12,593 bases of DNA from Nitrososphaerota archaeon (GCA_003135575.1 PLCG01000104.1:3036-15628), one strand, 5' to 3'. Counted from the stretch's first letter, positions 1 to 10,582 are shown. Numbers and translations: made by a program. The notes: generated by a model not told the origin, from the letters alone.

Positions 1-91
1 GATAGAGATCACTCTGACGAGCTAAAGGCTTAGCGATGGGCACGAGACAGCCAGCAGCAGAGCCTTCAGATGGATTAATCTGCGGGATGTC

Positions 92-98
92 ATAAATA
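92..98 (+). promoter_or_regulatory. TATA-like box (ATAAATA) for the 118..513 gene
   Basis: The A/T heptamer is centred 23 nt upstream of the ATG at 118, which fits archaeal leaderless promoter geometry. Confidence 0.45.
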
Positions 99-117
99 CT
101 AGAACTTGGAATTACCG

Positions 118-513
118 ATGATAAAATTGGTATCCGAGAAGGTCATACGTTTTCAGAACAAGAACAAGGACCTCGATCAGTTGGCACAGCAAATTTCGAA
201 ACGGTTGCAGTCCGAGGGGTACAAGACCCAGTACGCAAACCATTTCCTAGGAAGGGTCGTGCAGGCCCAAAAGTCCGGGATACTGCGAGACATTATTACT
301 GCCGACAGAGCGTTCACGATTCTGATCACGGGAGATCCGAATGACTTTGGGGTTCACATAGGCATCGGCAAGTGGGTCCAAAACCTCGCCGTAGTCGCGG
401 TAGAGACTATCCTTCTCTCAGTCCTGTTTCTCGCGGTTGACGTGCCCGAGATGCTGTGGACACGCCACATCGAGGGCGAGATTGCAAAAGAAATCACCCA
501 AATCGTGGGTTAA
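118..513 (+). CDS. hypothetical protein with a C-terminal hydrophobic segment
   Basis: The ORF track opens at TTG 106. I prefer the first ATG at 118 because of the TATA box at 92-98. There is a hydrophobic stretch NLAVVAVETILLSVLFLAV. No family was recognised. Confidence 0.5.
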   Translation: MIKLVSEKVIRFQNKNKDLDQLAQQISKRLQSEGYKTQYANHFLGRVVQAQKSGILRDIITADRAFTILITGDPNDFGVHIGIGKWVQNLAVVAVETILLSVLFLAVDVPEMLWTRHIEGEIAKEITQIVG

Positions 514-645
514 TCACTTAGAATCGCACATGAGGACAGAGCAGTTGGCTATGCCTGTGCGCGCGGTGGTGCAGTTCAAACAGTCTTCAACAGCCGTGAA
601 TTCGAGATGAACCGGAACCTATGCTCTGGGCAGAACTTCTAATCA

Positions 646-673
646 GGTCCCGGGAGGGACTCGAACCCTTACC
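646..673 (-). other. tRNA 3'-end-like fragment (T-arm plus 3' acceptor strand), no matching 5' half
   Basis: The minus strand reads GGTAAGGGTTCGAGTCCCTCCCGGGACC. This gives a canonical TTCGAGT T-loop flanked by GGG/CCC, then CCGGGAC. I found no complementary 5' acceptor strand (GTCCCGG, or GU variants) within about 130 nt upstream. Confidence 0.35.
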
Positions 674-748: not shown

Positions 749-833
749 TGTGGACCGGGGGGGGACTCGGCATAAATAATCAAGGGGCATATGTGTTGTA
801 TATCCAATAACAGGCGAAAGTTCGAAAGTGCCG
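749..833. repeat. intergenic motif module, copy A (paralogous to 5725-5926)
   Basis: Contains TGTGGACCGGGGGGG (749-763), GGGACTCG (762-769), GGCATAAATA (769-778), GTATATCCAAT (798-808) and GTTCGAAAGTGCCG (820-833). All recur in the 5725-5926 intergenic region, some in direct and some in inverted orientation. Confidence 0.6.
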
Positions 834-840
834 CGACTTG

Positions 841-848
841 TTAAAATA
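841..848 (+). promoter_or_regulatory. TATA-like box (TTAAAATA) for the isoprenoid operon
   Basis: Centred about 29 nt upstream of the TTG at 874, consistent with a leaderless or near-leaderless transcript. Confidence 0.45.
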
Positions 849-852
849 ACGC

Positions 853-869
853 TCGCGAACGGTTCGCGA
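853..869. promoter_or_regulatory. 17-bp perfect palindrome TCGCGAAC-G-GTTCGCGA between TATA box and start codon (candidate operator)
   Basis: Read directly: 8-nt arms with a 1-nt centre. It lies between the TATA box (841-848) and the start at 874, the classic position for an archaeal repressor. Confidence 0.4.
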
Positions 870-873
870 TTGT

Positions 874-1896
874 TTGACGGAAGACCTGCGTGCGCTTAGA
901 AGGAAAGTGGGCCAACGCATGCAGCACTACCTGCAAGAGAACTTCAGGTCAACCACTCTCGCATACAAGCTCCTCTCTGACTATCCAACGCGACCCGGAA
1001 AGGGAATAAGGCCAGCCTTCTGCCTCGCGGCTGCGGCCTCTGTGGGCGGAGACTACAATAACGCTGTGAATACGGGAGCGGCCATAGAGCTGCTGCACAA
1101 CGCGTTCCTCATCAAGGATGACGTCGTGGATCAGTCCCTCTATCGAAGGGGAGATCTTACCCTTAACAGGAAGTATGGCCTCGCCCTTGCAGCAAACGCC
1201 GGGGACGCGCTCAAGATACTCAGCATGACCCCCCTGATAGACAACCTCGGCGTGATAGGAGTTCGCAAATCCTTGCAGGTAATACTGGAGATACAGAAGA
1301 TGGCAAACAGGAGCGTCGCGGGGCAGATAGCCGAACTCACCTACGTGAAGAACAACAGGACAGACCTGAAACCGAAAGACTACTTCGAACTGTGCGAGAA
1401 CAAAACCTGCTGGTACACCACCATCGCCCCCTGCCGGACCGGAGTGATCATCGGGAGCGACAACGCAACAACCGAACAGCTGGAAACGATCACGAGATTC
1501 GCGCTTAGCATGGGGCTCGCGTTTCAGATAACTGATGACACGCTCAACCTGTCGGCCTCGGAGAAGCTCTATGGTAAGGAGATAAACGGAGACATCATGG
1601 AAGGGAAGAGGACGCTAATCCTCATCAGCCTACTCAACTCATGTTCGTCCGAGGAGCTGAAATTGATGAGACGCATCCTCAAGAGACCAAGGGACACGAA
1701 GAGCGACTCGGACGTCAAGTTCGTGAGAGCGCTGATGGAAAAGTACTCCTGCCTTGAGAATGCCAGGAAGGTAGCGAAGGAGTTCGCGGAGGAAGCGAGA
1801 GAGATACTCCTGAACGAATGCGACTGGATGACCGAGAAGCGCTGGAAAAAGTTCTTTCTTGATCAGACCAACTACCTCATCTATCGAAAGAAATAA
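874..1896 (+). CDS. trans-polyprenyl diphosphate synthase (GGPP/short-chain type), divergent
   Basis: First Asp-rich motif LIKDDVVDQSLYRRG (DDxxD-x4-RRG, nt 1117-1131). Second motif FQITDDTLN (nt 1534-1548) followed by YGKE...GDIMEGKRT. These are typical polyprenyl_synt family landmarks. The start is TTG in the track, so the true start is uncertain. Confidence 0.85.
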   Translation: MTEDLRALRRKVGQRMQHYLQENFRSTTLAYKLLSDYPTRPGKGIRPAFCLAAAASVGGDYNNAVNTGAAIELLHNAFLIKDDVVDQSLYRRGDLTLNRKYGLALAANAGDALKILSMTPLIDNLGVIGVRKSLQVILEIQKMANRSVAGQIAELTYVKNNRTDLKPKDYFELCENKTCWYTTIAPCRTGVIIGSDNATTEQLETITRFALSMGLAFQITDDTLNLSASEKLYGKEINGDIMEGKRTLILISLLNSCSSEELKLMRRILKRPRDTKSDSDVKFVRALMEKYSCLENARKVAKEFAEEAREILLNECDWMTEKRWKKFFLDQTNYLIYRKK

Positions 1897-1910
1897 GTGC
1901 TCCATGGCGG

Positions 1911-2315
1911 GTGCCTGATTATCGATTCCGCTTGAAAAAAGGTCGAAAGGCAGCCAATTCTAAGTCAAGCGCGAGCTCGGCGCCGCGCGCCAGCGTCATT
2001 GAAATAAATCCACGCGTAATTCAGCGCGCCCTAAATCAAGCCGTGAAGACTTTCACCAACCCGGAATATCAGGAGCAGCTGACGAAGCTCACCCAAGCCT
2101 CCATCACGAACTCCCTCCAGACTTTCCAGAGGCTGAGCACGCTCTCCACCCGGCTGTCCAAGATGGATAACGAGACAATGTCGAACATAGTGGAAGGTTC
2201 GATTGATGACCTGACCCGTGCGTTCCTGCAGTTCAACTCCGACCAGATGGTGCTCCTGCAAAGGCTCTCGGCCAAGACGCTGGAAATCCTAGATAGCCAA
2301 GCAAGTCAGAAGTGA
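1911..2315 (+). CDS. hypothetical Q/L/S/T-rich helical protein with a basic N-terminus
   Basis: GTG start 15 nt after the synthase stop, on the same strand. The low-complexity helical composition is reminiscent of phasin-like or lipid-associated proteins, but no family was recognised. Confidence 0.45.
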   Translation: MPDYRFRLKKGRKAANSKSSASSAPRASVIEINPRVIQRALNQAVKTFTNPEYQEQLTKLTQASITNSLQTFQRLSTLSTRLSKMDNETMSNIVEGSIDDLTRAFLQFNSDQMVLLQRLSAKTLEILDSQASQK

Positions 2316-2383
2316 GAAAAGGATCGCGGCTCTGACCTTTTGCACGAGGTAGGATAGAGGCTAGACCCGGAGGCACATGACTT

Positions 2384-3511
2384 TTGTTATCGTCACGACT
2401 TGAAGATGTTTCCTGGGTCGACGCCTTCAGTCTGCCGTCCATTTTCGATTCCCGCCTGTCCCTCTACAAAGAGTGGCACGACTTCGTCTTCTTCGACCGC
2501 AGCAGCCGGCTCTTCGGCCTGCTGAACTTCGCGGTTCACGGCAACCCCTACGACAGCAAGCGCGGATACGGGGTGGCCCTGGCTTTCCTCGTGGCACCGG
2601 GCGGCGGGATCCACACGGCCATGAAACTCATACCCCTGAGCAGGTTGACGGTATCGGCATACAGTCCGGATTTCGTGGGGGACGAAGTCGCCGTGTCTTA
2701 TCTCGGAAACAACTCGTTCAATATCAAGGGAATGATAGACGACATCTCGCTCGACCTGAGTATTCCTGTGATTCTCCCCCCGGTGACTATGAATCAGATC
2801 GGCTTTGATGTCCTAGGCAGGAACCAGATCAAGCCGGGGATGCTGGGGGCCGCCGCGGAGATGGCGAGGATTTGGGACAAGTGGGTGGAGCTCCCACGGC
2901 TCTCTGTCGTGGGAAGGATCGGAACGCGGGGGACGGACTACTTCGTCAACACCAACACCGGATATCAGGATCACGAAGGAGGAAGGTTCGACTGGGGAAG
3001 CGTTGCGGGCTGGGACACCGGCGTCCTCCTCTGCGACCCGACGAGCGCCGGGGAACCGGAGAAGGTGAGTTTCCTGTTCTACAGATATGGTCTGTCGGGC
3101 GAGAACTCCTACGGCGGAATCATCGCCAAGACGGCTGATGGCAATGAGCAGTTCTTCAGCACCGAGAAGATCACCATCACGAAATCGGGAGAATTCTCTG
3201 GCGAGCGGGCCTATCTGCCCGGGGTGACCAGATTGCTCTATCCGGACTACAAACCGAAGGTGCCCGCCACTATCGTGTTCTCCGCCTCCGATTCATCAGA
3301 CAGCGTCGAGATTACCTTCACCCCGCGGGCCGTCTGCACGATTGTCGTCGCCAGCACCTCCAACGAGGCAGAGACGACCTTCAACGAAATGTACTGCGAC
3401 GCTTCATTCAAGGCGAGCATAGGGGGTGAGACCTACGATAAGCTCATCCCATGCTGGTTCGAGTCCGTCGGGCCCCGCGGCAAATTGAACGACCATGCCT
3501 CTGAGACTTAG
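2384..3511 (+). CDS. beta-rich protein, possibly CrtC/AttH-like (lipocalin-like isoprenoid hydratase superfamily)
   Basis: GGAGG lies 10 nt upstream of the TTG at 2384. The N-terminal block EWHDFVFFDRSSRLFGLLNFAVHGNPY resembles, from memory, the WWY-x-DA-x-SDDG-x-GL-x-IAF-x-GSVFSPYY block of carotenoid 1,2-hydratases. GC3 is high, so shadow ORFs are open in other frames. The family call is tentative. Confidence 0.6.
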   Translation: MLSSRLEDVSWVDAFSLPSIFDSRLSLYKEWHDFVFFDRSSRLFGLLNFAVHGNPYDSKRGYGVALAFLVAPGGGIHTAMKLIPLSRLTVSAYSPDFVGDEVAVSYLGNNSFNIKGMIDDISLDLSIPVILPPVTMNQIGFDVLGRNQIKPGMLGAAAEMARIWDKWVELPRLSVVGRIGTRGTDYFVNTNTGYQDHEGGRFDWGSVAGWDTGVLLCDPTSAGEPEKVSFLFYRYGLSGENSYGGIIAKTADGNEQFFSTEKITITKSGEFSGERAYLPGVTRLLYPDYKPKVPATIVFSASDSSDSVEITFTPRAVCTIVVASTSNEAETTFNEMYCDASFKASIGGETYDKLIPCWFESVGPRGKLNDHASET

Positions 3512-3893
3512 GAAGTTCCTAGACCAGCTGCTTGACGTCCTGAAGGAAGACTATCCCAGGCAGCTGGGCCGCCTCATCCGGGATGCGAACGGTCTGACGT
3601 ATCTCCAGATGCTAGACAAGGAAAGGGCGGTGATCATTGTCCGAAACAGGACAATTACCATAACGAACAGGGCAAAGAAGAGTGAAATAAACGTCCGCGT
3701 CTACATCGGCAGAACCTGTCTCTTCGACGTTCTCGAGGGGCGGCTCACTCTGGCGGAGGCGCTCGAGGCGGGCGAGCTCAAGGTCTTCGGGGATCCTCTC
3801 ACATTGTTGCGCTGCTACGCCATATGGGAGAGGGTCATATCCTTGGCGCGGACCTCGCCCAGGTTCTACTTCTTGACCTACGAGTTGCGCTGA
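3495..3893 (+). CDS. SCP2 (sterol carrier protein 2-like) lipid-binding domain protein
   Basis: The C-terminal LFDVLEGRLTLAEALEAGELKVFGDPLTLLR matches the SCP2 pattern (G-x-L-x4-A-x3-G-x-L-x-hydrophobic-x-GD). It overlaps the upstream gene by 17 nt. Confidence 0.65.
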   Translation: MPLRLRKFLDQLLDVLKEDYPRQLGRLIRDANGLTYLQMLDKERAVIIVRNRTITITNRAKKSEINVRVYIGRTCLFDVLEGRLTLAEALEAGELKVFGDPLTLLRCYAIWERVISLARTSPRFYFLTYELR

Positions 3894-4038
3894 TGCGCCG
3901 ATTCATCCCAAGCCGAACCCCGGAAGAGGCAGCCGCAAGGTTCGAACGAGATGCCTGTTAGGTGACCTCGGTGGGCCAGGCGCCAACACAGCCAGGGCTA
4001 GCCGGAGGGAGATGGCTGCTTCTTTGAGAAACCTTGAT

Positions 4039-4338
4039 TCACTCGCACTCGCAGTCTTGTTCGGGGCATGCACCGGTGTGCGCTTGATGCCCGCAATCGT
4101 TGCAACAACGGTTGGTCGTTATCTGAATTTTGGGGAGCAGGTCCACCAGGGTCTGCAGAATGCCCGTGTTGAATGAGATGCATACCGTGGTGGTTTGAAC
4201 GCAGTGCTGGCAGCAGCCCGCCGGCTGCCCACACTCGCTGCAGTACTTGGCTGGTTGCAGGATGTTTATCGGGGATGCGACCGTCATAGGTGTCGTCCGA
4301 ACCTTCGCCGTTGCCTTTTGTGCCTTCGAGGCTGACAA
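4039..4338 (-). CDS. cysteine-rich small protein (12 Cys; CxxC, CCxxC, CCxxC, CxC motifs)
   Basis: YCSECGQPAGCCQHC...VC...RCCNDCGHQAHTGACPEQDCECE. The TTG at 4338 lies about 29 nt downstream of a TATA-like box (4364-4371). I prefer this frame over the overlapping 3998..4354 frame, whose GTG start would lie upstream of the predicted TSS and whose product is R/P/S-rich. An alternative start is the ATG at 4287. Confidence 0.45.
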   Translation of the reverse strand: MSASKAQKATAKVRTTPMTVASPINILQPAKYCSECGQPAGCCQHCVQTTTVCISFNTGILQTLVDLLPKIQITTNRCCNDCGHQAHTGACPEQDCECE

Positions 4339-4363
4339 ACAGGGATTTAACCACGGATGAAGC

Positions 4364-4371
4364 TAATAAAT
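4364..4371 (-). promoter_or_regulatory. TATA-like box (minus strand ATTTATTA) for the Cys-rich gene
   Basis: A/T octamer about 29 nt upstream of the TTG at 4338. Confidence 0.4.
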
Positions 4372-4421
4372 GTTCTTGAAAATTCTCGCATTCGTCCGTG
4401 AGATCTTCGAGGTCTGATGTC

Positions 4422-4652
4422 CTACTTGGACCCGGTCCGACCCTCTGATTTGTCCACGATCTCGATCATCTTGTCGGCGGTTTTGTCAAGCATCTTCTTG
4501 AGCTCCTTGAGATCCTCCTCGACCCGCCCGCGGTTCTTGATGTGGCGGCCAAGGAAGCCAAGGTAGACAAGGTCAAAGAAATGATGCTTGTCCGGATTCC
4601 TATCGTCTCTGGTCTGTTTTTCTTTCTCCCACAACCCGTCTATCCTGCCCAA
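4422..4652 (-). CDS. small highly charged helical protein, unknown function
   Basis: From the ORF track (TTG start). There is no TATA box in the 77-nt gap to the upstream gene, so it is probably co-transcribed with 4730..5659. The frame stays open, without a canonical start, upstream across the stop of the preceding gene, so the N-terminus is uncertain. Confidence 0.45.
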   Translation of the reverse strand: MGRIDGLWEKEKQTRDDRNPDKHHFFDLVYLGFLGRHIKNRGRVEEDLKELKKMLDKTADKMIEIVDKSEGRTGSK

Positions 4653-4729
4653 TTCCTCCTTCGTTAGGTACTTGGTTCGCTCTGACCTGGTCTCCTCCTC
4701 TTTCGCCCTTCTCGACTTCTGTTGAGAAC

Positions 4730-5659
4730 TCAGATTTCCACTTCCAACTCCGGGAGGCTCAACCCATTCAATTGCAGATCTAGGATCTTGAGTCCTTTGA
4801 AAGCAAGGTTGATGTCAAAGGGAGCCGAGCTTGCTGCCGAGCTGGCCGTGACGCTGCCCGCAACGCCCTTGAACTCGAGTCCGCCCTTGATTTTCAGCTT
4901 CACGCCGGTGACTTTGAGCGTCACCGTGCTCGTGATCTTCTGATTCGTGGCGTCTCCAGACGGATGGGCTCCGTTGTCATATAATGACTTACTCATTGCC
5001 ACCGACACCGGGGTGTTGGAGTCCACCTCCATCGGACCCGTGGTCATCGTTGGTATCTTTATGTTCTGGGCGACAATGTTGCGCATCGTCGCGGGAGGAA
5101 TGGTCACCTTGTCCGAGTCGAGCTCATCCATCAGGGTCTCCTTGACTTTCACGTCCATCGGACCCATCGGGTTCTGAACGGGGAAGGAACTTCCCAGGGT
5201 TATTCCTAAGGGATTCTGGAGAGGAATCTGCGTGCAATCCATGTCGATGTCCTCGACCCTCATCTCGGCGACGGTCGTGCTTCCGATGGGGTCCGGCTTC
5301 ATTGAGAATGGCCCGAAACCAATGTCCTTGGCTTTCATGGTGAAGCTTCCCCCGCTCATGTCTACGTCACCCAAGGAATTGACTTGGGTGAACGGGTCAA
5401 AATCGATCCCGCCGCTCACGTTCACGTTTGGGAGCGAATCAGGAGTGATCACCTCGCCGCTGAAGGTGCTGCTGATGGTGAAGGTCATCTCGATATCAAC
5501 ATTCTTCGCCTTTGCCGAGGCGTAGGTGAATGATCCGCTAAAGTCCTTGAGGCTGACGCTGGGAATCGATGCCGGGCTGACCTCTATCCGGTCGATCGTA
5601 ATCGGGCCACCAGAACTGGAACAGATTTCCGAATCCGGAATTACGACTTCTGGAGCCAA
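4730..5659 (-). CDS. 309-aa beta-rich orphan protein (G/S/T/V/P/M-rich, no signal peptide or TM segment)
   Basis: It is the longest ORF here and its plus-strand shadows are low-complexity. The TTG at 5659 is 28 nt downstream of TTAAAT. Recurring IP...GPM(D/E)V-type motifs are IPLQNPLG, NPMGPMDV and IPTMTTGPMEV. No family was recognised. Confidence 0.6.
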   Translation of the reverse strand: MAPEVVIPDSEICSSSGGPITIDRIEVSPASIPSVSLKDFSGSFTYASAKAKNVDIEMTFTISSTFSGEVITPDSLPNVNVSGGIDFDPFTQVNSLGDVDMSGGSFTMKAKDIGFGPFSMKPDPIGSTTVAEMRVEDIDMDCTQIPLQNPLGITLGSSFPVQNPMGPMDVKVKETLMDELDSDKVTIPPATMRNIVAQNIKIPTMTTGPMEVDSNTPVSVAMSKSLYDNGAHPSGDATNQKITSTVTLKVTGVKLKIKGGLEFKGVAGSVTASSAASSAPFDINLAFKGLKILDLQLNGLSLPELEVEI

Positions 5660-5684
5660 ACGATGGATTGCGGTCGCCTTACAG

Positions 5685-5690
5685 ATTTAA
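5685..5690 (-). promoter_or_regulatory. TATA-like box (minus strand TTAAAT) for the 309-aa gene
   Basis: Centred 28 nt upstream of the TTG at 5659, which is leaderless geometry. Confidence 0.4.
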
Positions 5691-5695
5691 GGGTT

Positions 5696-5712
5696 CCTGG
5701 AATAATTCCCGG
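5696..5712. promoter_or_regulatory. 17-bp imperfect palindrome CCTGGAAT-A-ATTCCCGG immediately upstream of the 309-aa gene TATA box
   Basis: Read directly: GGAAT/ATTCC core with CC..GG outer arms and 2 mismatched positions. It abuts the BRE side of the promoter. Confidence 0.35.
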
Positions 5713-5714
5713 CG

Positions 5715-5820
5715 TGAATGATTATGTGGACCGGGGGGGTTCCGCCCCTTGGAAGGGGCGAGTCCCTGGCCAACCTCTGAGTGGGTCCGGAACCCTTCAC
5801 GTTCCACACCCGTGTTCATT
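5715..5820 (-). ncRNA. candidate structured small RNA (unclassified)
   Basis: Minus-strand TATA-like CATAAATAT (rc of 5841-5849) lies about 26 nt upstream of about 5819. Foldable elements are a hairpin at 5783-5811 (4 bp, 2x2 internal loop, 5 bp, 7-nt loop) and GCCCC-TTGGAA-GGGGC (5744-5759), plus a C7 run that could alternatively pair with the GGGG tracts. There is no long ORF on this strand. I found no match to tRNA, SRP, RNase P or C/D-box patterns. Confidence 0.25.
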
Positions 5821-5926
5821 GGATATACTTGGACGCCTCGATATTTATGCCCCACTCTTTCAAATCAGACGATTGCAGAGTCGCCGTTTAGTAAAATTTG
5901 TCGCGTTTTTTCGTTCGAAAGTGCCG
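5725..5926. repeat. intergenic motif module, copy B (paralogous to 749-833)
   Basis: TGTGGACCGGGGGGG (5725-5739, direct). CGAGTCCC (5759-5766, inverted). ATTGGATATAC (5818-5828, inverted). TATTTATGCC (5842-5851, inverted). GTTCGAAAGTGCCG (5913-5926, direct), followed 6 nt later by TTTAAG, as copy A is followed 7 nt later by TTAAAATA. Confidence 0.6.
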
Positions 5927-5961
5927 AATGTGTTTAAGCGCCTTGCGCTCAGTCCCTCGAA

Positions 5962-6234
5962 TCAAAGGAATCTCTTTGTCCACTTCTCTCGTTTGTACGC
6001 CGCGTTCATGCATCGATCGTAGAGAGCCTTTGTTCTCAAGAAGCTATATTTGTCTCCAGCTAAGAGATTCTGGTATTCTTCATCGTCAACTACCTCGCCG
6101 ATAATGAATCGGACTTTCTTCGAAGCTAAATCTCTAAGATAGTCCTTGTAGTCCTTCTCCATGCTGAGCTCCTTTCCATATTGCTCGAGCAGTCGAGGAA
6201 GTTCGTCATCATTCAAAATTCCCTGAACTAGCAA
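5962..6234 (-). CDS. 90-aa charged hypothetical protein
   Basis: ORF track. The TTG at 6234 lies 23 nt downstream of the centre of the minus-strand ATTTATC (6254-6260). Composition is protein-like (DDELPRLLEQYGKEL...), and the plus-strand alternatives are R/S/C-rich shadows. Confidence 0.5.
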   Translation of the reverse strand: MLVQGILNDDELPRLLEQYGKELSMEKDYKDYLRDLASKKVRFIIGEVVDDEEYQNLLAGDKYSFLRTKALYDRCMNAAYKREKWTKRFL

Positions 6235-6253
6235 GGCCCAGACGAGTTCTCTT

Positions 6254-6260
6254 GATAAAT
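6254..6260 (-). promoter_or_regulatory. TATA-like box (minus strand ATTTATC) for 5962..6234
   Basis: The position relative to the TTG at 6234 fits leaderless geometry. Confidence 0.35.
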
Positions 6261-6284
6261 CGTATTCCCATTATGCTGTGGTAG

Positions 6285-6309
6285 GGCAACGCTCGACCTA
6301 TGCGTTGCC
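6285..6309. other. perfect 8-bp stem hairpin GGCAACGC-N9-GCGTTGCC
   Basis: Read directly. It lies between the 58-aa ORF and the promoter of the 90-aa gene. There is no adjacent T-run, so a terminator role is uncertain. Confidence 0.3.
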
Positions 6310-6372
6310 GGTTTCGTGTGACGACTCATGCTCATGGCTTGGAGTTCTGCGGTTGGTGTCTTGAGCCTTGTT

Positions 6373-6404
6373 GTGGTTATTCGTGGTTATTCGTGGTTAT
6401 GTGG
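6373..6404. repeat. tandem 10-bp repeat GTGGTTATTC, about 3.2 copies
   Basis: GTGGTTATTC GTGGTTATTC GTGGTTAT GTGG, read directly. It spans the stop codon of the 58-aa minus-strand ORF. Confidence 0.8.
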
Positions 6405-9121: not shown

Positions 9122-9147
9122 GTAAGGCGTCAGGCTGGCCCTTCGCC
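9122..9147. repeat. IS terminal inverted repeat (transposase-distal end)
   Basis: 15-nt and 8-nt perfect blocks match 10552-10582 in inverted orientation, with the spacer differing (3 vs 8 nt). Confidence 0.75.
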
Positions 9148-9381
9148 TACTGCCTGCCTGTTGTAGAAGATTGGCTCCCCTTTATCAGCCTAACGCTTGG
9201 ACTGGGGCTAGCTGGACAGACCTGCTCGACCTTTTCCGCATACACTCGATAAACGCTCCGACGCAGGTCGGGCGTATTCTGACGATTCAGCGGAGGCCGG
9301 GCACCACACTCAAATGGAAAAGCTCTATGGCTCAATTCTCACCGAATGGTTCGGTCTGCAACTCCATCCCCATCTATCCCG

Positions 9382-10542
9382 CTAGGCTGACTCACCTCCC
9401 TCTTCCCTATCCAGCCTGGAGAGCTTCTCCTCCGTCAGCTCTTCGTCCTCCCATCTCCAATTCTGTTCGGTGATGAGCATGTGGTGGATCATCCTGGCGA
9501 GCTTCTTCATGGTGAGCACACGGGCGTAGCTCCCCCTCCCCTTCCTCTTCTTGGCGCGGTCGTAGTACTCCTTGATCCCGGGGTTGCGCCTCATCACGGT
9601 GTCGACCATGACGCCGAGGGTCCACCTCGCTATCGAGGGACCGTCCTTCGACATCCTCCCCCTCCTCCGGACGTTGGAGCTGTCCTTGCTCACCGGGACG
9701 ATGCCGAGGTAGCTCGCCACGTGGTCGAACGTCGGGAAGCGGTGCGGGTCCCCGATGTAGGAGGCGTACAGGGAGGCGAGGTAGTAGTCGACGCCCGGTA
9801 TCGACATCATCAGCCTCGCGTGCTTGTTCTCCCTCGCGTTCCTCCTTATCCTCTCCTCCAGTGGCTCGCACTGACCCTCCATGAACTCGAGCCTGTCTGT
9901 CATGGTCTTGAGCACGACGTCCCTGTCGTCGTCGAACCTCAGCGACCGGATCGCGAGCCTCCTCGCGACGGAGAAGTTGTCGCTCGTCTCCGGGAGCGAC
10001 TGAACACCTTCCCTCGTGAGGTAGCTCAGGATGCTGCTCTTCATCCTGCCTATCTCCAACCCGAGCTTGACCCTCTGGATGAGCAGGTCCCTCTCGATCT
10101 GCTCCCCCTTCCCGAGGAGGTGGGACTCGGGCAACATGCCCGCGAGATGGAGCTTCGCTATCTTTAGGCTGTCGGCCCTGTCGTTCTTCTTCTTGGACCT
10201 GACGATCCAGGCGAGCTCCGTGGGGTGGGCGACCGTTATGTCGGTATACCCCAGCTCCTTCAGCATCCTCGAGAACGGGTAGGCCATCAGCGTCGCCTCG
10301 AACGCGACCCTGGCGTCCCTCGACACCCTGCTCGCGAAGAGGGCGTAACCTTCCTCGCTCATCGGGAAGGAGAACCTGTCCGAGACCTCTCCGCCCGGAG
10401 AGAGGACGGTTGCGAGGCTATCGCTGCCGCCCAGGTCGACACCCGCGATCGCGCTGTTGCTCATGCCCTGCTTGATTCTCTTCTTTCTCATTTCTCTTTC
10501 TCTCCTCTCCGCCAGAGCAGGTAGCGACTCCATGCCTGACAT
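9382..10542 (-). CDS. IS110-family transposase (DEDD RuvC-like N-domain plus Transposase_20-type C-domain)
   Basis: IAGVDLGGSDSLATV is the N-terminal catalytic D block. SIPGVDYYLASLYASYIGDPHRFPTFDHVASYLGIVPVSKDSSNVRRRGRMSKDGPSIARW matches the conserved IPG(I/V)G...IGD..RF......A.YAGL.P....SG.......ISK.G....R block. The more likely start is ATG 10464 (MSNSAIAGVDLG), because the 10542 ATG lies inside a terminal hairpin. Confidence 0.9.
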   Translation of the reverse strand: MSGMESLPALAERREREMRKKRIKQGMSNSAIAGVDLGGSDSLATVLSPGGEVSDRFSFPMSEEGYALFASRVSRDARVAFEATLMAYPFSRMLKELGYTDITVAHPTELAWIVRSKKKNDRADSLKIAKLHLAGMLPESHLLGKGEQIERDLLIQRVKLGLEIGRMKSSILSYLTREGVQSLPETSDNFSVARRLAIRSLRFDDDRDVVLKTMTDRLEFMEGQCEPLEERIRRNARENKHARLMMSIPGVDYYLASLYASYIGDPHRFPTFDHVASYLGIVPVSKDSSNVRRRGRMSKDGPSIARWTLGVMVDTVMRRNPGIKEYYDRAKKRKGRGSYARVLTMKKLARMIHHMLITEQNWRWEDEELTEEKLSRLDREEGGESA

Positions 10543-10550
10543 GGAGTCGC
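10524..10550. other. perfect 11-bp stem / 5-nt loop hairpin GCGACTCCATG-CCTGA-CATGGAGTCGC inside the IS 5' non-coding end
   Basis: Read directly. It abuts the inner edge of the inverted repeat at 10552. Confidence 0.8.
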
Positions 10551-10551
10551 G

Positions 10552-10582
10552 GGCGAAGGGCCAGCCGATCAGGACGCCTTAC
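10552..10582. repeat. IS terminal inverted repeat (transposase-proximal end)
   Basis: See 9122-9147. Confidence 0.75.

What the first reader, a model, noticed from the sequence alone, without database searches (positions are those of the whole stretch)
749..5926. Two intergenic regions 5 kb apart share a multi-block motif module with an inverted TATA-containing core
Region A (749-833) and region B (5725-5926) share exact blocks. TGTGGACC+G7 (15 nt) and GTTCGAAAGTGCCG (14 nt) are in direct orientation, and each 14-mer is followed 6-7 nt later by a TATA-like element. Between these, GGCATAAATA (10 nt) and GTATATCCAAT (11 nt) occur in the same relative order but on the opposite strand in B, and GGGACTCG is also inverted. 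My rough estimate is that four or more exact 10-15-mers confined to two intergenic stretches of 100-200 nt is far beyond chance. The arrangement resembles a paralogous promoter or ncRNA cassette whose TATA-bearing core has been flipped between fixed outer sites, as in an invertible promoter. Alternatively the motifs could be recombination or att-like scars bracketing the 5-kb segment that carries the isoprenoid operon and the orphan minus-strand genes. I cannot assign it to any known element class.
Basis: seen in the sequence. Interest (0 to 1): 0.7.

Follow-up and report, generated by a model that had tools for sequence, protein, structure and literature searches.

The report
Scrambled repeat flanking archaeal isoprenoid genes
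Two short non-coding stretches on either side of a conserved 4.9-kb archaeal gene block are diverged copies of one lineage-specific repeat, one with its middle flipped during evolution; this looks like a recombination scar, not a working genetic switch.

Summary
66 of the 85 nt of region A are covered by words of 8 nt or more shared with region B, against a mean of 2.4 (maximum 25) for other windows of the same genome.

The blocks are not generic promoter words. They occur nowhere else in 28.7 kb of this genome or in about 650 kb from relatives.

Regions A and B lie exactly at the edges of a gene block (835-5702: GGPP-synthase operon plus two minus-strand genes) that is collinear in 27 relatives. 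The sister species (91-93% protein identity) also has two direct copies of the core GTGGACCGGGG flanking the same block. One of them, E, is collinear with A in direct orientation, so the inverted AT-rich core in B is the derived state.

B also holds a quasi-palindrome built from an inverted copy of E sequence.

No inverted repeats flank the core at A, and no invertase lies nearby. All three assemblies show a single orientation. No Rfam or tRNA match was found.

Best reading: these are paralogous flanking repeats, possibly old att-like scars, later scrambled by template-switch inversion and short-patch conversion. An invertible promoter is not supported. Interest is modest.

The parts
749..763 (+). 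Copy A of the repeat core 'p' (TGTGGACCGGGGGGG). It contains the 11-mer GTGGACCGGGG that the sister species also carries.
   Evidence: Exact match to 5725-5739. The 11-mer is found only at the four block-flanking sites in 684 kb of archaeal loci.
764..821 (+). Interior of copy A (b1 + c): GACTCG, GGCATAAATA (769-778), GTATATCCAAT (798-808) and AGGCGAAAGT (812-821). It is in the ancestral, direct orientation.
   Evidence: Collinear with the right flank of sister element E; 0 of 1000 shuffles reach the score.
820..833 (+). 14-mer 's' (GTTCGAAAGTGCCG), copy A. It ends 1 nt before the left edge of the conserved block.
   Evidence: Exact match to 5913-5926. Homology to L031 starts at 835.
835..5702 (.). 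Conserved collinear gene block: GGPP/polyprenyl synthase operon (+), a small Cys-rich ORF, then the 76-aa and 309-aa genes (-). The native promoters are TTAAAATA at 841-848 (+) and CTTAAATC at 5684-5691 (-).
   Evidence: 91.7% nt identity to L031 from 835 and 86.5% to L168 up to 5702. The block is present in 27 relatives. The TATA boxes are conserved.
5697..5724 (+). Left flank of copy B, homologous to the left flank of sister element E. A GGR-like gene that lies between the 309-aa gene and E in relatives is missing here.
   Evidence: Alignment of the E and B left flanks; 25 of 1000 shuffles reach the score. L168 gene map. Weak GGR_cat Pfam hit.
5725..5739 (+). Copy B of the repeat core 'p'.
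5740..5808 (+). GC-rich quasi-palindromic filler (y1). It comprises TTCCGCCCCTT-GG-AAGGGGCGAGT, with an inverted copy of E's GGACTCGCCC at 5756-5765, and an imperfect inverted copy of p at 5788-5808.
   Evidence: Inverted repeats I4-I6. 10-mer GGACTCGCCC of E found inverted in B. Plus-strand fold z = -2.4.
5818..5851 (-). Inverted copy of the AT-rich core (GGCATAAATA ... GTATATCCAAT). This is the derived orientation.
   Evidence: A right flank against the reverse complement of B right flank scores 41 versus 18.3 +/- 3.4; 0 of 1000 shuffles reach it.
5872..5889 (+). ATTGCAGAGTCGCCGTTT. It resembles segment 'd' of sister element E (ATTGC----TCGCCGTTT) in direct orientation.
   Evidence: Weak on its own: for the E right flank against the B right flank, 124 of 1000 shuffles reach the score.
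5913..5926 (+). 14-mer 's', copy B.

Best explanation
A and B are two diverged paralogous copies of a lineage-specific intergenic repeat of about 100-200 bp with the core GTGGACCGGGG. The repeat brackets the conserved GGPP-synthase / 309-aa gene block as direct repeats.

The bracket already existed in the common ancestor of this species and its sister species. Its origin is unknown. It could be the attL/attR-like scar or the target duplication of an old relocation of the block.

In the window lineage three things followed:
1. The copy upstream of the synthase gene (A) came to resemble the E-type copy. This points to non-allelic conversion, or to re-insertion of the block together with E.
2. 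The GGR-like gene next to the 309-aa gene was lost.
3. Copy B was scrambled by short-range replication template switching. Its p-proximal sequence was duplicated in inverted form, making a quasi-palindrome, and its AT-rich interior was inverted.

Short patches of 10-15 nt stayed identical, or were re-homogenised, between the copies.

Shown: the repeats, their position at the synteny edges, their presence in the sister species, and the direction of the inversion. Inferred: template switching and conversion as the mechanism, and the absence of a present-day function. The TATA-like words may still act as incidental upstream promoters that face into the block from both ends.
For: - The blocks are highly non-random and unique to A and B.
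- The conserved block is 835-5702; A and B abut its two edges, and the outer neighbours differ in the sister species.
- The sister species has the core twice, in direct orientation, flanking the same block, and nowhere else in 684 kb. An nhmmer profile of the four copies finds no more.
- E's right flank is collinear with A's right flank in direct orientation (0 of 1000 shuffles). A's right flank against the reverse complement of B's also gives 0 of 1000. E's left flank matches B's (25 of 1000). E's GGACTCGCCC is inverted in B.
- Adjacent shared segments in A overlap by 1-5 nt of microhomology: 762-763, 769, and GGGGC at 784-788.
- Quasi-palindromes lie around p in B.
- Template switching between short imperfect inverted repeats is a documented cause of spacer inversion and arm homogenisation (PMC8604942, PMC7954356, PMC7202029).
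Against: - The order of inverted pieces in B is not what a single block inversion gives, so several events must be assumed.
- The duplicated 14-mer s has no counterpart in the sister species and is not explained by a specific step.
- Conservation of an 11-nt core in four copies, in otherwise fast-diverging intergenic DNA, hints at selection on it. That would mean a protein-binding or recombination site, which a pure scar model does not predict.
- Only one sister species and about 29 kb of this genome could be examined.
Confidence: 0.5

Rival explanations
1. The 15-bp direct repeats are functional or recently functional att sites. The gene block would then be a cryptic integrated or excisable cassette that recombines at the core GTGGACCGGGG through a site-specific recombinase encoded elsewhere.
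For: - Direct 15-bp repeats bracket about 5 kb, and the same core brackets the block in the sister species although the outer neighbours differ.
- Thaumarchaeal att sites are short (median 17 bp, as short as 8 bp), and 15 of 68 lie in intergenic regions (PMC6563490).
- The minus strand of p resembles the 3' end of a tRNA, and a tRNA-like T-arm fragment lies 80 nt away at 643-669.
- E looks like B's left flank plus p plus A's right flank.
Against: - There is no integrase in the block or in the 28.7 kb examined.
- The block is present, with the same gene order, in all 27 relatives, and most of them lack the repeat.
- No empty site or circular junction was found.
- A's distal left flank may also resemble E's, but only weakly (93 of 1000 shuffles). 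That would fit whole-element paralogs better than reciprocal att recombinants.
- No tRNA gene is present.
Confidence: 0.17
2. The shared blocks form a cis-regulatory module: binding sites and auxiliary TATA promoters that co-regulate the two convergent operons from both ends of the block.
For: - The TATA-like core faces into the block at both ends.
- The 14-mer lies 7 nt upstream of the conserved synthase TATA.
- The 14-mer starts with GTTCG, a half-site of the conserved dyad in the synthase leader.
Against: - The blocks are absent from the same promoters in relatives, including the species at 93% identity.
- In the sister species element E lies downstream of a gene, not at a promoter.
- Its counterpart of the 'TATA' is CCCGATTAATC.
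- Exact 10-15-mers in scrambled order and orientation are not what binding sites look like.
Confidence: 0.13
3. B, and perhaps A and E, encode a small structured non-coding RNA with its own promoter.
For: - On the minus strand of B, a TATA-like box and an AT-rich proximal element precede an 80-nt GC-rich stretch rich in hairpins.
- The plus-strand fold has z = -2.4.
- About 270 nt here have no convincing gene.
Against: - No Rfam match, even at E up to 10.
- The minus-strand fold has z = -1.0.
- The GC-rich part has no homolog in the sister species.
- The structure is explained by inverted duplication of neighbouring DNA.
Confidence: 0.08
4. It is a programmed invertible promoter, or a programmed inversion of the whole 5-kb block between the inverted cores. 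The recombinase could be one of the nearby IS110 / Piv-type DEDD enzymes.
For: - The core is inverted between otherwise direct outer blocks.
- Two IS110-family RNA-guided transposase genes lie within 14 kb.
- From my own knowledge, the Piv invertase belongs to this enzyme family.
Against: - No flanking inverted repeats at A, and only a 7-nt pair at chance level in B.
- The comparison is between paralogs, not between states of one locus.
- Three assemblies show a single arrangement.
- The cores share only two exact words of 10-11 nt, and their spacing differs.
- No matches above chance to the non-coding ends of the insertion sequences.
Confidence: 0.04

Closest known systems
attL/attR direct repeats of integrated mobile elements in Thaumarchaeota (Krupovic et al. 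2019, PMC6563490)
   Same: A short direct repeat of 15 bp, within the reported range of 8-26 bp, brackets a multi-gene segment. It is intergenic, resembles a tRNA 3' end, and lies at synteny breakpoints.
   Different: There is no integrase or other mobile-element gene inside. The enclosed genes are a conserved cluster present in all relatives. No empty site is known. Homology between the copies extends beyond a simple core.
Short-range template-switch mutations at quasi-palindromes, giving inversion of the spacer between inverted repeats and homogenisation of their arms (PMC8604942, PMC7954356, PMC7202029)
   Same: Short segments appear in inverted orientation next to their source. An imperfect palindrome has formed around p in B. 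Adjacent copied segments are joined at microhomologies.
   Different: Some shared patches link sites 5 kb apart rather than a few tens of bases. Several events are needed. The mechanism is inferred, not observed.
Invertible promoter switches (fimS, hin, Bacteroides invertons)
   Same: A promoter-like AT-rich segment is found in opposite orientation between fixed outer sequences.
   Different: The two orientations are at two different loci. There are no flanking inverted repeats, no adjacent invertase, and no evidence for both states at one locus.
MITE / REP-like dispersed intergenic repeats
   Same: A short non-coding repeat with hairpin potential, restricted to one lineage.
   Different: Only two copies were found per genome sampled. 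There are no terminal inverted repeats and no target-site duplications.

Membership tests
Invertible promoter (inverton) | Inverted repeats flank the invertible segment at the same locus | tested here: not met
   none at A. In B only GAGTGGG/CCCACTC (7 nt), which is at chance level.
Invertible promoter (inverton) | Both orientations are present in the population | tested here: inconclusive
   Three assemblies (scaffold_151, k141_366419, Logan SRR7151668) are identical in orientation. Raw reads were not available.
Invertible promoter (inverton) | A site-specific invertase is encoded nearby | tested here: not met
   No tyrosine or serine recombinase in 28.7 kb. Only two IS110-family transposases, at least 3.5 kb away.
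Integrated mobile element with att sites | Direct repeats flank the element | tested here: met
   15-bp repeat at 749-763 and 5725-5739. The core is also duplicated in the sister species.
Integrated mobile element with att sites | An integrase or other mobile-element genes lie inside the element | tested here: not met
   Pfam, NCBIfam and PHROGs scans of the enclosed ORFs find a polyprenyl synthase, an SCP2-like domain and unknowns.
Integrated mobile element with att sites | The element is absent (empty site) in related genomes | tested here: not met
   The block is present and collinear in 27 relatives. No contig links L directly to R.
Integrated mobile element with att sites | The att site overlaps a tRNA gene (the common case) | tested here: not met
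   ARAGORN and Rfam find no tRNA. There is only a T-arm-like fragment at 643-669. The ARAGORN hit with a 2846-nt intron is spurious.
MITE / dispersed repeat | Terminal inverted repeats, target-site duplications, and many copies | tested here: not met
   Only 28.7 kb of this genome was searchable.
Known ncRNA family | Match to an Rfam covariance model | tested here: not met
Generic archaeal promoter words | The blocks recur at many promoters of the genome | tested here: not met
   No other copy in 28.7 kb of the same genome, allowing up to 2 mismatches, and none in relatives.
Xer/dif-type site | 11-bp inverted arms separated by a 6-bp spacer (PMC2958812) | tested here: not met
   no such dyad in A or B.

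The most novel reading that the evidence does not exclude
The core GTGGACCGGGG is a live recombination site. The isoprenoid-lipid gene block would then be a mobilisable or invertible cassette. It would be moved or flipped by a recombinase encoded elsewhere, possibly one of the RNA-guided IS110 / Piv-type enzymes that are abundant on this contig. That would explain why the block keeps its flanking repeats while its neighbours change between sister species.
Probability: 0.07. Interest if true: 0.7.

Novelty: new member of a known kind. Interest (0 to 1): 0.3.

Why it matters
If the scar reading is right, the locus is a clean natural example, in an uncultured soil or peat Nitrososphaerota lineage, of how short flanking repeats and template switching remodel intergenic DNA at synteny breakpoints. 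It is also a caution: paralogous repeats with a flipped middle can mimic an invertible switch.

It would matter more if the conserved core proved to be a recombination site. A core lipid-biosynthesis cluster would then sit on an excisable cassette.

Tried and rejected
- **tRNA or split tRNA.** ARAGORN and Rfam find none. With introns allowed, ARAGORN gives one hit with a 2846-nt 'intron' that runs through coding genes; I rejected it.
- **Rfam at relaxed thresholds** on A, B and the sister elements: only noise.
- **Collection scans.**
  - The core pattern GGCATAAATA-N(5-35)-GTATATCCAAT gave 7 viral hits (one phage lineage plus two singletons).
  - It also gave 91 metagenome hits, almost all copies of one unrelated AT-rich repeat whose sequences I inspected, plus scattered singletons. 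None came from this organism.
  - The 15-mer in viral contigs gave 24 hits, which I judged consistent with chance from the count alone; I did not inspect them.
- **MITE and target-duplication models.** No terminal inverted repeats or target duplications at any plausible boundary (and inspection by eye).
- **One large inversion between the two cores.** On paper it would yield two elements with perfect terminal inverted repeats. No relative or assembly shows that arrangement, and sister element E contradicts it.
- **IS110 bridge-RNA guide matches to the blocks.** Only chance 8-mers, several of them outside the insertion sequence.
- **dif-like site or replication-origin ORB-like site.** No dyad was found. 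The ORB resemblance rests only on my memory of the consensus.
- **Homology of B's interior to the ancestral 309-aa / GGR intergenic region.** Not alignable.
- **e2 against A or B flanks.** Not significant.
Full report
**Origin and context**

The window belongs to a metagenomic scaffold (WOOD18-1_SAMN07124964 scaffold_151, 166 kb) of an uncultured archaeon. Its closest public relatives are MAGs labelled Thaumarchaeota, Nitrososphaerota or Nitrososphaerales. Two other assemblies carry the same sequence: k141_366419 is 100% identical over 9.2 kb, and two Logan contigs from SRR7151668 are 100% and 99.9% identical. Together with the extension I could read 28.7 kb of this genome.

The genes between the two regions are:
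- a polyprenyl / GGPP synthase (874-1896, Pfam PF00348) followed by three genes on the + strand;
- an uncalled Cys-rich ORF;
- a 76-aa and a 309-aa gene on the - strand.

All blocks are exact and at the stated places, with two small corrections. The 11-mer is at 798-808 and 5818-5828. The 8-mer GGGACTCG is inverted in B but is not collinear with the other two inverted blocks. Two further inverted 8-mers also link A and B.

66 of the 85 nt of A are covered by words of 8 nt or more shared with B. Other 202-nt windows of the same genome give a mean of 2.4 and a maximum of 25. Markov shuffles of A give a mean of 4.8 and a maximum of 33.

The blocks are not generic promoter words:
- with up to 2 mismatches, nothing else in the 28.7 kb matches them;
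- none occurs in any related locus.

**What surrounds the repeats**

The gene order synthase / three genes / 76-aa / 309-aa is kept in 27 related loci. In some of them the last pair is flipped.

Nucleotide homology to the sister species (91-93% protein identity; contigs L031/L032 and L168/L169 from one sample) starts sharply at 835 and stops sharply at 5702. So A (749-833) ends 1 nt outside the left edge and B (5725-5926) begins 22 nt outside the right edge.

The native promoters lie inside the block and are conserved in relatives: TTAAAATA at 841-848 and CTTAAATC at 5684-5691 on the minus strand. The genes outside the block differ between the window species, the sister species and the 89% relatives. 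A GGR-like gene that sits next to the 309-aa gene in all close relatives is missing at this position in the window.

**The key comparison**

The sister species also has the core GTGGACCGGGG twice, in direct orientation, on either side of the same block:
- e2 lies about 130 nt upstream of the synthase TATA in L031;
- E lies downstream of the GGR-like gene in L168.

A profile of the four copies finds no more.

Flank comparisons with 1000 shuffles each gave:

| Comparison | Shuffles reaching the score (of 1000) | Meaning |
|---|---|---|
| E right flank vs A right flank, direct | 0 | p, GACTCG, TAATCA, GGGC and AGGCGAAAGT are collinear |
| A right flank vs B right flank, inverted | 0 | The core is inverted in B |
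| E left flank vs B left flank | 25 | Homologous |
| E's GGACTCGCCC in B | 10-nt exact match | Present inverted at 5756-5765 |

Hence the direct orientation of the AT-rich interior, as in A and E, is ancestral, and B carries the derived inverted state.

B also contains the quasi-palindrome TTCCGCCCCTT-GG-AAGGGGCGAGT and an imperfect inverted copy of p at 5788-5808. In A, neighbouring shared segments overlap by 1-5 nt.

**Tests of the switch, RNA and mobile-element ideas**

- No inverted repeats flank the core at A, and only a chance-level 7-nt pair does so in B.
- The only recombinases in reach are two IS110-family transposases. Their non-coding ends show no match to the blocks above chance.
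- All assemblies show the same orientation.
- Rfam and ARAGORN find nothing. Fold z-scores are -1.0 to -2.4.
- There is no integrase, and the block is not accessory.
- Scans of the viral and metagenome collections with the core pattern returned only unrelated AT-rich sequences: one phage lineage and a multi-copy repeat unrelated to this archaeon.

**Interpretation**

The simplest account is a lineage-specific flanking repeat that arose before the two species split. It may be the att-like or duplication scar of a relocation of the block. Thaumarchaeal att sites are typically this short (PMC6563490).

Short-range template switching and short-patch conversion then scrambled it. These are documented causes of spacer inversion and of homogenisation of inverted-repeat arms (PMC8604942, PMC7954356).

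I cannot explain the duplicated 14-mer by a specific step. The survival of the 11-nt core in four copies leaves room for a functional recombination or binding site. I therefore put 0.5 on the scar model, 0.17 on live or recent att sites, 0.13 on a regulatory module, 0.08 on an ncRNA and 0.04 on a programmed inversion.

**Verdict**

This is a real, non-random feature. It is a new example of a known kind of genome scar, not an invertible promoter. Interest is modest.

Noticed in passing
window 9133-10566; second copy at L029 about 16.7-18.3 kb: An IS110-family (IS1111-like) insertion sequence. The transposase gene is at 9382-10542 (-), with 15-bp subterminal inverted repeats GGCTGGCCCTTCGCC at 9133-9147 and 10552-10566. 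A related second copy lies about 8 kb further on. The 3' non-coding parts of the two copies are conserved and are candidates for bridge RNAs.
   Followed up: partly
window 643-669 (-): A tRNA-like fragment, AAGGGTTCGAGTCCCTCCCGGGACC, with a canonical T-loop and an acceptor 3' strand but no 5' half. It may be a remnant of an old integration at a tRNA gene.
   Followed up: partly
window 851-868: A perfect dyad, TCGCGAAC-G-GTTCGCGA, just downstream of the synthase TATA box. A CGAAC...GTTCG dyad is kept at the same place in relatives with sequence changes, which suggests an operator or a leader hairpin.
   Followed up: partly
window 5702/5703, compared with L168 2011-3039 and L160 11987-13039: A 342-350-aa gene with a weak geranylgeranyl-reductase catalytic-domain hit lies divergently next to the 309-aa gene in all close relatives. 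It is missing at this position in the window species.
   Followed up: partly
window 4039-4338 (-): A 99-aa Cys-rich ORF that the gene callers did not call. It is conserved at the nucleotide level (75-91% identity in the aligned segments) in relatives.
   Followed up: no
window 4422-5659, compared with L006-L026: The 309-aa / 76-aa gene pair is on the opposite strand relative to the synthase operon in many relatives. This is an evolutionary inversion of the pair.
   Followed up: no
window 6373-6400: A tandem repeat, GTGGTTATTC x3, in a region that is poor in genes and low in GC (5800-6400, GC about 0.45).
   Followed up: no
window 24-511, compared with L155-L159: The 131-aa gene is 91.6% identical at the nucleotide level to a relative, but homology ends exactly at the gene borders on both sides. 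This shows very fine-scale shuffling of gene order in this lineage.
   Followed up: partly
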